Positions 5,236-8,297 of a stretch of DNA of 64,000 nucleotides are shown here, piece after piece (within the stretch, counting starts at the first letter, position 1; each line of letters begins with the position of its first letter). The stretch spans positions 2,053 through 66,052 of the forward strand of contig JAHIRY010000047.1 of assembly GCA_018818405.1 (NCBI GenBank), given 5' to 3'. The DNA comes from Patescibacteria group bacterium. GTDB taxonomy: Bacteria > Patescibacteriota > Patescibacteriia > UBA11705 > JABHMO01. Below the pieces are notes generated by a model, which searched no databases, was not told the origin of the DNA, and was given only the letters and a program-made list of their open reading frames with translations. The position numbers were made by a program, and so were the translations under genes.

Positions 5236-7491
5236 ATGAATAATATAAGAAATTTTTGCATTATCGCGCACATTGACCACGGAAAGTCAACTTTGGCTGA
5301 CCGTTTTTTGGAATTCACCGAAACAGTGGAAAAGCGGCACATGAAAGCTCAGCTTCTTGATTCCATGGATTTGGAGCGTGAAAGAGGGATTACAATCAAA
5401 CTACAGCCTGTCCAAATGAACTATATGACTCGGATTTGTGAGAATAAGAATGAGTCAAAATTACTTTATGAGGATCTTACTTATAAAATAAGGGGAGCCG
5501 CTTTTAATGTTAAGAAAAATTTGGGGTTGGGGCATAAAGAAAAAATTTATCAGAAAGCGCTGGAAGCGGAATTCAAAAAACTCGGTTTGCTGTATGAAAG
5601 TGAAAAATCGATTGAAGTTTTTTACGATGACAAAAAAATCGGAGTTTACCGCCCCGATTTTATCATTGAAAACAAAGTAATCGTCGAACTGAAATCATTA
5701 CCCTTTATCGGCGAAAGAGAAAATTCACAATGCCAATCCTACTTAAAAGGTTCTGAATACAAAGTTCTAGTATTAATCAATTTTTCAAAAACAGACGTCG
5801 AATTTAAACGATTCATTTACGATAGAGCGAGAAAGTCCGCGCAGTCCGCGAAGTCCGCATATATACTTAATTTGATAGATACGCCGGGTCATGTCGATTT
5901 CTCTTACGAGGTTTCCCGCTCGCTCGCGGCAGTCGAAGGCGCAATTCTCTTGGTTGACGCGGCGCAGGGCGTTCAGGCTCAGACTTTGGCGAATTTGTAT
6001 TTGGCGATTGAGCAGGGATTGGAAATAATTCCGGTGATAAATAAAATCGATCTGCCGGCAGCTGATGTGGAAAAAGTTTCAACCGAATTGATAAATCTTA
6101 TCGGCTGTAAAAAAGAAGAAATACTTTTGTGTTCAGCGAAAACAGGGCAGGGAATTGAGGCGATTTTGGACGCGGTGGTGGAGAAAGTTCCGCCGCCGAA
6201 AATCGAACCCGGCAAACCTTTGCGCGCTTTGATATTCGATTCTTTTTTCGATGAATACAAAGGAGTGGTCGCTTATGTCAGAATCGTTGACGGAGAGATT
6301 AAAAAAGGCGATAAAATATTGATTGTCGGAACTGACACTGAAGCGGAAGTTTTGGATGTGGGAATTTTAAAGCCGTCATTGGTCTCAACTCCGAAATTGG
6401 AAACCGGTGAAATCGGATTTGTTGTCAGCGGTTTGAAGGAAATTGAAAATTGCCGGGTGGGCGACACCATTACTTCGTACAGAGAACGGGGAAATATCGA
6501 GGTTTTACCCGGTTACAAACAAGCGACGCCAATGGTTTATGCGGGAATTTTTTGCAAAGAAGGCAATGAGTACGGCGATTTGAGAGAAGCGATCGGGAAA
6601 TTGAAATTAAATGACGCGTCCTTGGTTTATGAACCGGAAAGTTCACCTGTTTTGGGTTTTGGTTTTCGTTGCGGATTTTTGGGAATGTTGCATTTGGAAA
6701 TTTTTCAAGAACGATTACGCCGGGAATTTGATTTGGATTTGGTTGTGACTGTTCCGAGCGTTGCCTACAAGGTTGTGTTGAAGCCGGGAAGTTCCATAGA
6801 ACCGCAGATCAGGAAGGAGCAGATTGTGGCTGATGACGCGTACATTATAAAAAATCCCAATGAATTTCCGGACATGAGTCAGATCGATCACATGGAAGAG
6901 CCGATCATGAATGTTGATATTGTCAGTCCAAAGGATTATCTGGGAAATATCATGAGTTTGGTGCAGGAAAATCGCGGTGAATATTTGAACACGGAATTTA
7001 TCGATCCCACGCGCGTGATTTTGCATTACCGCATGCCGCTCGCAATGTTGATCGTTGATTTTTATGACAAATTGAAAACAGTCAGCTCGGGTTATGCGTC
7101 GATGAATTATGATTTTTTCGGTTATGCGCGCGCTGAATTGATAAAAATGGATATTCTGGTTGCCGATGAAATGGTGGAAGCTTTTTCCACGATTATTTAC
7201 AAGGACATGGCATTTCAAATCGGAAAGAAAATAGTGCAAAATTTAAAAGATACAATTCCAAAACAACAGTTCGTGGTAAAATTGCAGGCAGCCATCGGCG
7301 GAAAAATAATCGCGGCGGAAAGAATTTCCGCTTTGCGCAAAGATGTGACAGCGAAATTATACGGCGGAGATTGGACGAGACGGCAGAAATTATTGGAAAA
7401 GCAGAAAAAGGGAAAAAAGAAAATGATGGCGTTCGGAAAAGGCAAAGTGAATATTCCGCCGGAAGCGTTTCTTGCGGTGATTAAACGGTGA
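5236..7491 (+). CDS. lepA: Elongation factor 4 (LepA) carrying a 144-aa in-frame insertion
   Basis: IIAHIDHGKSTL P-loop, DTPGHVDF, and LepA-specific C-terminal domains. At 751 aa it is about 150 aa longer than canonical LepA of roughly 600 aa. Confidence 0.9.
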   Translation: MNNIRNFCIIAHIDHGKSTLADRFLEFTETVEKRHMKAQLLDSMDLERERGITIKLQPVQMNYMTRICENKNESKLLYEDLTYKIRGAAFNVKKNLGLGHKEKIYQKALEAEFKKLGLLYESEKSIEVFYDDKKIGVYRPDFIIENKVIVELKSLPFIGERENSQCQSYLKGSEYKVLVLINFSKTDVEFKRFIYDRARKSAQSAKSAYILNLIDTPGHVDFSYEVSRSLAAVEGAILLVDAAQGVQAQTLANLYLAIEQGLEIIPVINKIDLPAADVEKVSTELINLIGCKKEEILLCSAKTGQGIEAILDAVVEKVPPPKIEPGKPLRALIFDSFFDEYKGVVAYVRIVDGEIKKGDKILIVGTDTEAEVLDVGILKPSLVSTPKLETGEIGFVVSGLKEIENCRVGDTITSYRERGNIEVLPGYKQATPMVYAGIFCKEGNEYGDLREAIGKLKLNDASLVYEPESSPVLGFGFRCGFLGMLHLEIFQERLRREFDLDLVVTVPSVAYKVVLKPGSSIEPQIRKEQIVADDAYIIKNPNEFPDMSQIDHMEEPIMNVDIVSPKDYLGNIMSLVQENRGEYLNTEFIDPTRVILHYRMPLAMLIVDFYDKLKTVSSGYASMNYDFFGYARAELIKMDILVADEMVEAFSTIIYKDMAFQIGKKIVQNLKDTIPKQQFVVKLQAAIGGKIIAAERISALRKDVTAKLYGGDWTRRQKLLEKQKKGKKKMMAFGKGKVNIPPEAFLAVIKR
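5428..5859 (+). other. In-frame GxxExxY / PD-(D/E)xK nuclease-like domain inserted between the G2 and G3 motifs of LepA
   Basis: Contains GHKEKIY, the GxxExxY motif, and RPDFIIENKVIVELK, a D..ExK motif. It replaces the short beta-hairpin loop present in E. coli LepA (KASDGET). The 3' junction holds the direct repeats agtccgcgc/agtccgcga/agtccgca. Confidence 0.7.
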
Positions 7492-7641: not shown

Positions 7642-8190
7642 CTAGCGGTTCATCTCGAGCGCCTTGCGCAAGATGCTGAAATTTTTTGAAAAGTATCGTC
7701 CGAGGATTTCCGCTTTTTTCATGATCAGCTTCAGGTTTTTTTCTTCCGCATCTTCATTTTTTTGTGAGGGTTTGTTTCGATTCTTCGCGTCGTCTTCCTC
7801 TTCTTTTGTCATCAATGACAGCTGGAAGAGCTGAGTTAGAATCAAATAGCAAAGTCTTTGAATTTGCGCTTTTTCCGCAGCCGGATTTAGCGTATTTCTG
7901 AGATAAAGATCAAATTCTTGAAGTGTGTCAGAAATGTGCTCGCCATGTTTTTGCATGGTGTCAATCAGAAGTAAAGCAGATTCAGCATCTTCAATGTACA
8001 AATTCAGCCCTCCTCGCTGCTTGGCTTCCATGAAGCTAAGTATCAGTAGTTGCATTCCTTCTTCAAAAATGCGTTTGTTTCCGACCACGAAAAAGTATGT
8101 TGCCCCGCTCCAACCGTCGTTATGGCGCGCCCCATCTTTCTTTACCCAGTTTTCCAACTTGCGGCCTTCTTTTACAGATGGATAATCCAT
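7642..8190 (-). CDS. Hypothetical protein, 182 aa from the SD-supported start (MDYPSVKEGRK...)
   Basis: Strong SD AAAGGAGG sits 7 nt upstream of the ATG at 8188-8190. The ORF-track start at 8238 lacks an SD. No recognisable domain. Minus strand, GC slightly above local background. Confidence 0.5.
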   Translation of the reverse strand: MDYPSVKEGRKLENWVKKDGARHNDGWSGATYFFVVGNKRIFEEGMQLLILSFMEAKQRGGLNLYIEDAESALLLIDTMQKHGEHISDTLQEFDLYLRNTLNPAAEKAQIQRLCYLILTQLFQLSLMTKEEEDDAKNRNKPSQKNEDAEEKNLKLIMKKAEILGRYFSKNFSILRKALEMNR

Positions 8191-8297
8191 GGTCGACCTC
8201 CTTTTGCCGGACTGCAACCTGATATAGAAATCTAACAAAAAACAAAGTTTCCGTCAAGAGAAGCCTTGTTTTTGCGATAATAAAGTTTGTTGGCGAT

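What the first reader, a model, noticed from the sequence alone, without database searches (positions are those of the whole stretch)
5428..5859. GxxExxY / PD-(D/E)xK nuclease-like domain inserted in frame into the GTPase domain of LepA
LepA is normally about 600 aa. Here a 144-aa segment lies exactly between the G2 region (GITIK) and the G3 motif (DTPGH), replacing a short beta-hairpin loop. The insert contains GHKEKIY (GxxExxY) and RPDFIIENKVIVELK (D..ExK). These are hallmarks of the GxxExxY protein family, which is typically a free-standing ORF inside 23S rRNA intervening sequences. The insert has no intein boundary residues. It therefore looks like a stably fused, possibly homing-endonuclease-derived, domain in an essential translation factor. 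The short direct repeats at the 3' junction (agtccgcgc agtccgcga agtccgca) hint at the insertion event.
Basis: partly seen in the sequence, partly recalled or inferred. Interest (0 to 1): 0.65.

Follow-up and report, generated by a model that had tools for sequence, protein, structure and literature searches.

The report
Mobile nuclease cassette inside LepA gene
The LepA translation-factor gene of this candidate-phyla-radiation (Patescibacteria) bacterium carries, in frame, a complete small nuclease gene flanked by its own repeat array; it is one copy of an apparently undescribed family of cassettes that sit inside the coding sequence of many housekeeping genes and are read through as part of the host protein.

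Summary
ORF 5236-7491 is a full LepA/EF4. A complete GxxExxY / PD-(D/E)XK domain (TIGR04256 1-116/116, E 5e-32) is inserted in frame at the tip of the beta2-beta3 hairpin, between G2 and G3.

The insert is not private to LepA. Its closest relatives (51-71% identity) are almost all embedded in frame in other housekeeping proteins. These include RecG, GatB, LeuRS, RtcB, SecA, DHFR, AsnB, transketolase and glycosyltransferases, mostly in Patescibacteria.

Nearly every copy is bounded by inverted arrays of about 9-nt repeats, and the repeat cores of the two arms co-vary. Translated, the arrays give the 'TQTDAD...' and '...QRESA' linkers. The left arm has decayed here.

ORF-less hairpins built from the same repeat units occupy the same sites. 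LepA and insert histories are decoupled, and the nearest LepA relatives lack the insert.

Best reading: a selfish, intein-like but non-splicing nuclease cassette tolerated as a guest domain. Its mobility mechanism and nuclease activity are inferred. I found no paper describing it.

The parts
5236..7491 (+). lepA (EF4) gene with embedded cassette; 751-aa product
   Evidence: TIGR01393 scores 848.9 bits. G1 is at 5266-5292, G2 at 5383-5397, G3 at 5878-5892 and G4 at 6040-6051, all intact. The LepA part of the AF2 model superposes on Aquifex LepA 2ywe/2ywf with TM 0.94 and rmsd 2.5-2.7 A. MurJ-LepA-RecJ synteny is shared with the insert-less L005 and L091.
5236..5424 (+). LepA N-terminal exon-like part (G1, switch I/G2, strand beta2; aa 1-63)
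   Evidence: GTP_EFTU profile positions up to about 65. The model has a strand at aa 58-64.
5425..5457 (+). Left linker, i.e. the decayed left repeat arm (MTRICENKNES; GACTCGGATTTGTGAG)
   Evidence: It aligns to the intact left array GCGGACTGACGCGGACTGATGCGGAC of L006. Complementarity to the right arm has been lost (z = -0.2). pLDDT is low here.
5458..5823 (+). GxxExxY / PD-(D/E)XK nuclease domain (aa 75-196). GxxExxY lies at 5530-5550, D141 at 5656-5658 and E151-x-K153 at 5686-5694.
   Evidence: TIGR04256 and PF13366 match over their full length. AF2 gives pLDDT 93-98 within the fusion and 95 alone. Foldseek's best matches are Cas4 SSO0001, lambda-exonuclease-like enzymes and Hjc. All 24 residues that are invariant among 22 embedded copies are present.
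5824..5859 (+). Right linker, i.e. the right terminal repeat array (RARKSAQSAKSA; three 9-nt units AAGTCCGCG/CAGTCCGCG/AAGTCCGCA at 5833-5858)
   Evidence: Direct-repeat family D2. It is homologous to the right arrays of L006, L013 and L015 (GTCCGC cores), which pair with inverted left arrays. It is the only such array in the 64-kb window.
5860..7491 (+). LepA C-terminal exon-like part (strand beta3, G3-G5, domains II-V, LepA_C)
   Evidence: GTP_EFTU profile 65-188, GTP_EFTU_D2, EFG_C and LepA_C.

Best explanation
Window 5425-5859 is a copy of a selfish, nuclease-encoding cassette with this layout: left array of about 9-nt repeats, then the GxxExxY PD-(D/E)XK nuclease ORF, then an inverted right array. 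It has inserted into the DNA that encodes the solvent-exposed beta2-beta3 hairpin turn of the LepA G domain.

The cassette has no start codon, no stop codon and no splicing domain. Its repeat arrays have a 3-codon period. It is therefore translated straight through. The arrays become flexible low-complexity linkers and the nuclease folds as an independent guest domain, leaving the LepA fold and presumably its function intact.

The family behaves like inteins or homing-endonuclease genes. It occupies the same sites next to highly conserved motifs (here about 5 codons upstream of DTPGH). It is present or absent sporadically among close relatives, and it is exchanged independently of the host gene. 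It also resembles Rickettsia palindromic elements and MITEs, because it has ORF-less hairpin derivatives built from the same repeat units.

Shown: domain identity, in-frame read-through, inverted repeat arrays with co-varying cores, multiple hosts, recurrent sites, host/insert incongruence and ORF-less derivatives.

Inferred: that the nuclease cuts DNA (at empty sites or at the arrays) to drive copying; that LepA stays active; and that this particular copy, whose left arm has decayed, can no longer move in cis.
For: Identity and integrity.

Same site in other LepAs: 24 of 25 insert-bearing LepAs among the top 120 homologues and 38 of 38 scorable metagenome LepA loci.

Sporadic distribution: the nearest LepA relatives (79-83% identity over the host part, with the same MurJ-LepA-RecJ synteny) lack the insert. 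Insert-bearing LepAs are at most 72% identical.

Decoupled histories: across 253 LepA pairs, host identity and insert identity are almost uncorrelated (Spearman 0.16). P0070/P0089 have hosts 86.6% identical but inserts 52.5% identical. P0084/P0089 have hosts 57% identical but inserts 82.8% identical. Inserts in different hosts can be closer to each other than inserts in the same host: the GatB P0251 insert is 83% identical to the LepA P0069 insert, and the GT2 P0243 insert is 77% identical to the LepA P0053 insert.

Many hosts: translational GTPases, RecG, GatB, LeuRS, RtcB, DHFR, GT2, GT4, Wzy, AsnB, riboflavin kinase, P-type ATPase, transketolase and SecA. Of the 30 best of 1.84e9 representative proteins, 23 carry the domain internally.

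Read-through, tested independently of gene calling: 9 of 9 genome loci and 74 of 81 metagenome domains sit in open frames with at least 60 aa on both sides. Four of the remaining seven are cut by contig ends.

Inverted arrays: 12 of 14 and 70 of 74 cassettes have arm complementarity far beyond shuffled controls (median z -4.3). The cores are lineage-specific and co-vary: GCGGAC/GTCCGC, GCAGAA/TTCTGC, GCGGAT/ATCCGC and GCAGAC/GTCTGC. Free-standing family members carry the same 'NTD/NAD...' and '...KSA/SV' tails.

ORF-less derivatives: a hairpin at the same LepA site in L090 (-32 kcal/mol). A hairpin of ACGCGGAT units in L014 LepA (-53.7 kcal/mol) lies at the site where P0116 carries a full cassette. 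An ATTCGGA hairpin lies beside an ATTCGGA-flanked cassette in L011.

Catalytic residues E28, D67, E77 and K79 are invariant in 22 of 22 embedded copies.
Against: No nuclease activity, target site or transposition/homing event has been demonstrated for any GxxExxY protein. Its function is listed as unknown in PMC3424549.

I could not define a target-site duplication or a common target sequence across hosts.

A purely selfish copy with a decayed left arm (z = -0.2) would not be expected to keep every catalytic residue. This copy does, which leaves room for a trans-acting role or a host-beneficial role.

Inserts evolve about as slowly as LepA itself (mean pairwise identity 61.0% versus 61.3%), which is stronger constraint than many intein endonuclease domains show.

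No close relatives were found in viral contigs that could act as vectors.

Two of 80 metagenome copies carry an in-frame nonsense codon inside the insert. These are unexplained.

Whether the guest domain clashes with the ribosome was not tested.
Confidence: 0.62

Rival explanations
1. Domesticated accessory domain. The nuclease has been co-opted as a functional module of LepA, for example to cut mRNA or rRNA on stalled or mis-translocated ribosomes. On this view its presence in LepA is adaptive rather than parasitic.
For: Catalytic residues are fully conserved even though this copy's left repeat arm has decayed. The insert evolves as slowly as LepA. LepA is the most frequent host among the closest relatives, at 42 of 81. 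The nuclease can only be made as a chimera, because there is no conserved internal start codon and no stop codon.
Against: The same domain, with the same repeat-derived linkers, sits in at least 15 functionally unrelated proteins, including DHFR, glycosyltransferases, GatB and SecA. The closest LepA relatives do without it. Insert and host histories are incongruent. ORF-less hairpins occupy the same site. All of this fits a mobile element better than a LepA-specific function.
Confidence: 0.15
2. RNA-level removal. The inverted arrays form a long stem in the lepA transcript, as in 23S rRNA intervening sequences or archaeal bulge-helix-bulge introns. The stem is cut by RNase III or by the encoded PD-(D/E)XK enzyme, and the exons are rejoined (for example by RtcB), so mature LepA lacks the insert.
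For: Most copies have strong arm complementarity with co-varying cores. The fold shows distant similarity to tRNA-splicing endonucleases among other PD-(D/E)XK enzymes. From memory, not verified here, GxxExxY genes are reported in rRNA intervening sequences. Two copies with internal nonsense codons but otherwise intact host frames would be harmless under this model.
Against: The downstream junction is in frame and free of stop codons in essentially all copies despite linkers of variable length. That would be unnecessary if the insert were excised. The window copy and L001 have lost one arm yet keep the frame. Arm mismatches show no excess of sense-strand G.U over A.C (25 versus 36; 119 versus 173), and most mismatches are transversions. 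That is the opposite of what a selected RNA stem should show. No bacterial mRNA excision-ligation pathway of this kind is known.
Confidence: 0.07
3. Inert relic. An ancient insertion has been fixed in this lineage and no longer has any activity, selfish or useful. It persists only because precise deletion is rare and imprecise deletion would destroy LepA.
For: The left arm has decayed here. The nearly invariant W93 is replaced by Ser in this copy. Insert GC is 35.6% against 43.4% for the rest of lepA.
Against: All 24 invariant residues, including the catalytic E, D and ExK, are retained. The AF2 model is very confident. Close LepA relatives without the insert, or with only short hairpin remnants (P0007, P0027), show that loss does happen.
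Confidence: 0.12
4. Intein or other protein-splicing element, or alternatively an assembly or frameshift artefact.
For: It is an in-frame insertion next to a conserved motif of a conserved protein, as inteins are.
Against: There is no Hint/intein or LAGLIDADG match. The junction residues are variable, with no conserved Cys/Ser at the N junction and no His-Asn plus Cys/Ser/Thr at the C junction. The whole insert is accounted for by a PD-(D/E)XK fold plus disordered linkers. Against an artefact, the same architecture is seen in dozens of independent assemblies; for example P0067 occurs on 24 contigs.
Confidence: 0.02

Closest known systems
Inteins carrying homing endonucleases
   Same: Both are in-frame insertions in conserved housekeeping genes, right next to highly conserved motifs. 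Both show sporadic distribution at recurrent sites, a history decoupled from the host gene, and an encoded nuclease.
   Different: This element has no Hint splicing domain and no conserved splice-junction residues. The insert apparently stays in the mature protein. Its nuclease is PD-(D/E)XK rather than LAGLIDADG or HNH. It is bounded by inverted DNA repeat arrays, which inteins lack.
Rickettsia palindromic elements (RPEs) and other coding-sequence MITEs (Ogata et al. 2000; cited from memory, see also PMC10969869 found)
   Same: [quoted passage not shown] The ORF-less hairpins seen here (L090, L014, L011) look just like this.
   Different: RPEs encode nothing. Here the full-length element carries its own nuclease ORF, which suggests an autonomous/non-autonomous pair. 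The repeat arms are tandem arrays of about 9-nt units.
Free-standing GxxExxY proteins (TIGR04256 / PF13366 PDDEXK_3)
   Same: It is the same domain with the same motifs and the same repeat-derived N- and C-terminal tails.
   Different: Free-standing relatives are only about 40-56% identical and form separate branches. They have their own start and stop codons. None of the 20 examined lies in rRNA. Their function is unknown.
23S rRNA intervening sequences with ORFs (e.g. 23S_rRNA_IVP; RNase III-excised stems)
   Same: Both have the architecture of an inverted-repeat stem flanking a small ORF, inserted into a highly conserved gene of the translation apparatus.
   Different: The host here is a protein-coding gene, and the insert must be translated. 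The arms carry no RNA-stem signature. A survey of CPR rRNA insertions reports LAGLIDADG, GIY-YIG and 23S_rRNA_IVP but not PDDEXK_3 (PMC11270868).
REPtrons (RAYT transposase gene flanked by inverted REP sequences, with dispersed non-autonomous REPs); named from memory
   Same: In both, an enzyme gene is bracketed by inverted short repeats, and ORF-less repeat hairpins are dispersed elsewhere.
   Different: The enzyme class differs (HUH tyrosine transposase versus PD-(D/E)XK). REPs are intergenic, whereas these elements are intragenic and in frame.
PD-(D/E)XK homing endonuclease I-Ssp6803I and Cas4/RecB-type nucleases
   Same: They share the PD-(D/E)XK catalytic core. The best structural matches are Cas4 SSO0001 (4ic1), lambda-exonuclease-like enzymes and Hjc. 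I-Ssp6803I is a precedent for a PD-(D/E)XK enzyme acting in homing (from memory).
   Different: Similarity is only at the fold level (TM about 0.5, 10-22% identity). No solved structure matches by sequence.

Membership tests
LepA / EF4 (TIGR01393) | Whole-protein score above the curated cutoff, with the five-domain architecture including LepA_C | tested here: met
   848.9 bits against a cutoff of 533.9. GTP_EFTU, GTP_EFTU_D2, EFG_C and LepA_C are all present. The model superposes on Aquifex LepA with TM 0.94.
LepA / EF4 (TIGR01393) | Intact G1-G4 GTPase motifs | tested here: met
   AHIDHGKST, RGITI, DTPGH and NKID are all present.
LepA / EF4 (TIGR01393) | Ribosome-dependent GTPase / back-translocase activity | not testable with these tools
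   This needs biochemistry. Whether the insert clashes with the ribosome was not modelled, because no coordinates were available.
GxxExxY protein (TIGR04256 / PF13366) | Profile match above cutoff over the full length | tested here: met
   TIGR04256 scores 110.6 bits (cutoff 35) over profile 1-116/116. PF13366 scores 109.8 bits (cutoff 22).
GxxExxY protein (TIGR04256 / PF13366) | GxxExxY motif plus the PD-(D/E)XK catalytic D...ExK on an alpha-beta-beta-beta-alpha-beta core | tested here: met
   G99-Y105, D141, E151 and K153 are present. The AF2 model has pLDDT 95 with the expected topology, and its fold matches are PD-(D/E)XK nucleases.
GxxExxY protein (TIGR04256 / PF13366) | Free-standing ORF of about 125 aa | tested here: not met
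   The domain is embedded at aa 75-196 of a 751-aa protein, with no start or stop codon of its own.
23S rRNA intervening-sequence ORF | Located inside an rRNA gene helix | tested here: not met
   The window contains no rRNA. None of 20 free-standing relatives is in rRNA.
Intein | Hint splicing domain (blocks A, B, F, G) | tested here: not met
   Pfam finds no intein or Hint family. The insert is fully explained by the nuclease fold plus linkers.
Intein | Conserved nucleophiles at both junctions (Cys/Ser at position 1; His-Asn followed by Cys/Ser/Thr at +1) | tested here: not met
   The junctions are variable low-complexity sequence, and position +1 is Tyr, Phe or His.
Homing-endonuclease-type mobile element | Sporadic presence at one conserved site, with insert phylogeny incongruent with host phylogeny | tested here: met
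Homing-endonuclease-type mobile element | The encoded enzyme cleaves the insert-less allele | not testable with these tools
   This needs a cleavage assay on empty-site DNA such as L091 (CAAATGAAATATAAAGATCATATTTTGAATTTGATA).
MITE/RPE-like inverted-repeat element | Terminal inverted repeats | tested here: inconclusive
   The family meets this: 70 of 74 copies have z < -2. This copy meets it only in part, because the right array is intact and the left has decayed.
MITE/RPE-like inverted-repeat element | Non-autonomous ORF-less derivatives sharing the same ends | tested here: met
   L090, L014 and L011 hairpins.
MITE/RPE-like inverted-repeat element | Target-site duplication | tested here: inconclusive
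   No consistent duplication is recognisable at the LepA or RecG junctions. The exact element ends are not defined.

The most novel reading that the evidence does not exclude
GxxExxY cassettes are a previously unrecognised class of autonomous mobile element specialised for living inside coding sequence. The inverted arrays of 9-nt (3-codon) repeats would serve two purposes: they are the element's recognition ends, and once translated they are the flexible linkers that make insertion into conserved enzymes survivable. The PD-(D/E)XK nuclease is made only as a chimera with its host protein, and it mobilises both full cassettes and ORF-less hairpin derivatives. In effect this would be an 'intein lifestyle without splicing', widespread in Patescibacteria. 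A further-out variant is that the arms and nuclease, together with RtcB, form a bacterial protein-dependent mRNA excision-ligation system. I put that variant at about 0.05.
Probability: 0.45. Interest if true: 0.85.

Novelty: new variant of a known kind. Interest (0 to 1): 0.72.

Why it matters
If correct, this gives a first biological context for the large GxxExxY/PDDEXK_3 family: 8,462 representative proteins at E<=1e-3 with no known function.

It would also add a third strategy to the known ways selfish DNA survives inside essential coding sequence. Inteins splice themselves out of the protein. RPEs are tiny and encode nothing. These cassettes carry a folded enzyme and simply stay in the protein.

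It would explain many 'oversized' housekeeping proteins in CPR genomes that pipelines mislabel. Some LepAs are named 'GxxExxY protein'.

It marks naturally permissive domain-insertion sites in LepA, RecG, GatB, LeuRS, SecA and other proteins, which is useful for protein engineering.

It also offers a compact nuclease-plus-repeat system whose specificity can be tested directly.

Tried and rejected
- Other copies in the window: a tblastn search and a repeat-array scan found none.
- Rfam: there is no rRNA or known RNA at the locus, and none around 20 free-standing relatives.
- Word-indexed homologue search with the insert alone returned only free-standing proteins and missed the embedded clade. 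The exhaustive HMMER search was needed to find it.
- Literature: searches for GxxExxY, PDDEXK_3, PF13366, CPR in-frame insertions, palindromic elements and MITEs in Patescibacteria found no description of this arrangement.
- Viral contigs: only weak partial matches, so there is no evidence for phage vectors.
- dN/dS was not attempted, because the available LepA DNA pairs are too divergent (57-72% aa identity) for meaningful synonymous rates. Residue invariance and a comparison of host versus insert identity were used instead.
- Target-site duplication or a common target motif: not found.
- The 13-aa extension in the closest insert-less LepA (P0007; CCAGCAC CCAGCAC CTAGCC) might be a deletion scar, but this could not be established.
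- Docking on the ribosome was not possible, because model coordinates are not exposed.
Full report
**1. The observation**

The 751-aa ORF at 5236-7491 (+) is an unambiguous LepA/EF4. It scores 848.9 bits against TIGR01393 (cutoff 533.9) and has GTP_EFTU, GTP_EFTU_D2, EFG_C and LepA_C domains. The LepA profile match is interrupted between profile positions 65 and 66.

The interrupting segment is a complete GxxExxY domain. TIGR04256 matches over profile 1-116/116 (E 5e-32), and PF13366 PDDEXK_3 matches over 2-117/117 (E 1e-31). Those read QMKY-KDH-ILNLIDTPGH, whereas this protein reads QMNY[144 aa]YILNLIDTPGH.

GHKEKIY is aa 99-105, and RPDFIIENKVIVELK is aa 139-153. Three 9-nt direct repeats lie at 5833-5858. 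The G1-G4 motifs of LepA are intact.

AlphaFold2 models the chimera with mean pLDDT 86. The insert has pLDDT 93-98 and is flanked by low-confidence linkers. G-domain strands lie on either side at aa 58-64 and 208-215. The LepA part superposes on Aquifex LepA crystal structures with TM 0.94 and rmsd 2.5-2.7 A.

The insert modelled alone has pLDDT 95 and a PD-(D/E)XK-type topology. Its best structural matches are Cas4 SSO0001, lambda-exonuclease-like enzymes, Hjc and restriction enzymes, at TM about 0.5. No solved structure matches by sequence.

The exact protein is in GenBank as MBU1132554.1, 'translation elongation factor 4 [Patescibacteria group bacterium]'.

**2. It recurs in LepA, at one site, sporadically**

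Among the 120 best LepA homologues, 25 carry PF13366. In 24 of them the domain is at exactly this hairpin. P0116 carries it at a second site, between domains II and III. A tblastn-based scan of metagenome contigs added 42 LepA loci, and all 38 that could be scored have the insert at the same site.

The window's closest LepA relatives lack the insert. P0007 and P0009-P0012 are 79-83% identical over the host part and share the MurJ-LepA-RecJ synteny. Insert-bearing LepAs are at most 72% identical.

Across 253 pairs of insert-bearing LepAs, host identity and insert identity are nearly uncorrelated (Spearman 0.16), and some conflicts are striking. P0070/P0089 have hosts 86.6% identical and inserts 52.5% identical. 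P0084/P0089 have hosts 57% identical and inserts 82.8% identical. The insert therefore has its own history.

**3. It is not a LepA feature but a cassette family living inside many genes**

An exhaustive HMMER search of 1.84e9 representative proteins found 8,462 relatives. In 23 of the 30 best (51-66% identity) the domain is internal to a larger protein.

Pfam and BLAST identify the following hosts:
- translational GTPases
- RecG (always between DEQHRFG and TATPIPRT)
- GatB
- LeuRS
- RtcB
- DHFR
- GT2 and GT4 glycosyltransferases
- Wzy-type ligases
- asparagine synthase
- riboflavin kinase
- a P-type ATPase
- transketolase
- SecA

The source genomes are mostly Patescibacteria (Saccharibacteria, Paceibacterota, Doudnabacteria, Moranbacteria).

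Free-standing GxxExxY proteins are more distant, at 40-56% identity, and branch outside this embedded clade in a neighbour-joining tree.

Inside the clade, inserts from different hosts intermix. The GatB P0251 insert is 83% identical to the LepA P0069 insert. GT2 P0243 is 77% identical to LepA P0053, and RtcB P0246 is 70% identical to LepA P0067. This implies copying or gene conversion between genes.

**4. Anatomy of the cassette**

Every embedded copy, whatever its host, has an N-side linker resembling TQTDAD, TRTNAD or QKNAE and a C-side linker resembling QRESA, SPRKSA or SASS. Free-standing proteins begin and end with the same peptides.

At the DNA level these linkers are tandem arrays of about 9-nt units. 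The right array is the reverse complement of the left. In L006, for example, the left array is GCGGACTGACGCGGACTGATGCGGAC and the right is GTCCGCGTTAAGTCCGCGAAGTCCGC.

Arm complementarity exceeds shuffled controls in 12 of 14 cassettes and in 70 of 74 cassettes (z < -2; median z -4.3). The repeat core differs between lineages but co-varies between the two arms: GCGGAC/GTCCGC, GCAGAA/TTCTGC, GCGGAT/ATCCGC and GCAGAC/GTCTGC.

The 3-codon period keeps the reading frame. In the window only the right array survives (5833-5858, encoding KSAQSAKSA). The left arm (5425-5457) is a decayed homologue of the L006 array and no longer pairs with the right arm (z = -0.2).

**5. ORF-less derivatives**

Some insert-less LepAs carry a short palindrome at the same hairpin. 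L090/P0027 has one of -32 kcal/mol. L014 LepA carries a full cassette with ACGCGGAT/ATCCGCG arms. It also carries a hairpin of -53.7 kcal/mol, built from the same unit, at the second site, which is exactly where P0116 has a full cassette. L011 shows the same pairing with ATTCGGA units. This is the pattern expected for autonomous and non-autonomous members of one element family.

**6. Is it translated or removed?**

I tested the reading frame without relying on gene callers. In the genome scan, 9 of 9 loci with at least 52% identity to the embedded consensus sit in long uninterrupted frames. In the metagenome scan, 74 of 81 domains have at least 60 aa of open frame on both sides. Four of the other seven are cut by contig ends. 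By chance the downstream junction would be in frame only one time in three.

No Hint or intein domain and no conserved junction nucleophile is present.

For RNA-level excision I applied the wobble test. A stem selected in the sense transcript should tolerate G.U pairs but not A.C pairs. The observed counts were 25 versus 36 and 119 versus 173, and transversions dominate the mismatches. The symmetry of the arms therefore looks like a DNA-level feature, such as terminal inverted repeats or protein-binding sites, rather than an RNA stem.

In addition, the window copy and L001 have each lost one arm yet keep the frame. Read-through translation is thus the best-supported fate.

Two copies carry a single in-frame nonsense codon inside the insert: a TAG in L149, and a TAA replacing the motif Glu in L111. 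I cannot explain these. They could be sequencing errors, fresh pseudogenes or cases of bypass.

**7. Mechanism: what is shown and what is inferred**

Shown:
- The element is a self-contained IR-ORF-IR cassette.
- It is inserted in surface loops or inter-domain linkers, adjacent to highly conserved motifs.
- It is read through as part of the host protein.
- Its distribution is sporadic and phylogenetically decoupled from the host.
- It has ORF-less derivatives.

Inferred:
- The PD-(D/E)XK enzyme promotes copying, either by cutting empty alleles (homing) or by acting on the repeat arrays (transposon-end or cruciform processing).
- The host protein remains functional because the linkers isolate the guest fold.
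- The window copy is no longer mobile in cis.

The invariance of the catalytic E, D and ExK residues in 22 of 22 embedded copies, together with an evolutionary rate equal to LepA's, shows selection on the enzyme. That selection could be selfish, acting in trans on other copies, or it could benefit the host. I cannot separate these possibilities, so the domestication rival keeps 0.15.

**8. Comparison with known systems**

The lifestyle resembles inteins and homing-endonuclease genes, but the defining splicing domain is absent. The ORF-less forms resemble Rickettsia palindromic elements, but the full element encodes an enzyme. The IR-ORF-IR layout resembles rRNA intervening sequences and REPtrons, but the host genes are protein-coding and the enzyme class differs.

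Literature searches found no description of this arrangement. PDDEXK_3 is listed with unknown function (PMC3424549). The CPR rRNA-insertion survey (PMC11270868) does not report it. The searchable library is incomplete, so prior description elsewhere cannot be excluded.

**9. Verdict**

The feature is real and is already deposited, although it is annotated simply as EF4. It is best understood as one somewhat decayed copy of an undescribed family of in-frame nuclease cassettes.

I rate it a new variant of a known kind (selfish in-frame insertions), with interest 0.72. The main uncertainty is the activity and mobility mechanism of the nuclease, which only experiments or strain-level polymorphism data can settle.

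Noticed in passing
window 7642-8238 (-): A 198-aa ORF lies between lepA and recJ. It has no Pfam match. The syntenic insert-less loci L005 and L091 have no called gene in this spacer.
   Followed up: partly
L007 1-11472: A single 13-kb CPR contig carries three free-standing GxxExxY genes squeezed between housekeeping genes. It also carries an FtsH gene containing an intein (Intein_splicing plus LAGLIDADG). Classical inteins and GxxExxY cassettes therefore coexist in the same genomes.
   Followed up: no
L012 1785-4019 and P0250: This LeuRS carries a GxxExxY cassette, a NUDIX domain inserted further downstream, and two short ORF-less TQ(T/K)NAE repeat patches. That makes several independent in-frame insertions in one aminoacyl-tRNA synthetase.
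   Followed up: partly
L011 2876-5461: One membrane glycosyltransferase-like gene holds two different GxxExxY cassettes (repeat cores GCAGAC and ATTCGGA). It also holds an ORF-less ATTCGGA hairpin of -51 kcal/mol.
   Followed up: partly
L149 about 2549-2551; L111 about 980-982: Two embedded copies have a single in-frame nonsense codon inside the nuclease domain, while the host frames are otherwise intact. L149 has a TAG in RGAAF*VRKK. L111 has a TAA replacing the Glu of GxxExxY. They may be errors, fresh pseudogenes or evidence of bypass.
   Followed up: partly
P0275, P0277, P0289, P0296 and others; P0266, P0278 and others: Other GxxExxY architectures appear among the 150 best representatives. 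There are 31 N-terminal fusions, many to proteins with a transmembrane segment and a long extracytoplasmic part. There are also 17 tandem double-domain proteins.
   Followed up: no
L019 63-806: A contig labelled Pacearchaeota (DPANN archaeon) has an embedded copy with a different repeat core (CCACGGA / TCCGAGG). The phenomenon may therefore extend beyond Patescibacteria, or the bin may be mis-assigned.
   Followed up: no
L005 6001-7863 (P0007), hairpin region: The closest insert-less LepA has a 13-aa extension at the insertion site that contains CCAGCAC CCAGCAC CTAGCC repeats. This may be a scar from a lost cassette. P0011, P0096 and P0100 have similar low-complexity extensions.
   Followed up: partly
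74 cassette arm pairs: Mismatches between the left and right arms show an excess of A.C over G.U on the sense strand (173 versus 119, p = 0.002). This is probably a side-effect of coding constraints on the TQTDAD and QRESA linkers, but that was not tested.
   Followed up: no
window 5428-5859 versus the rest of lepA: Insert GC is 35.6%, against 40.1% and 43.4% for the flanking lepA parts and 40.6% for the whole window.
   Followed up: no
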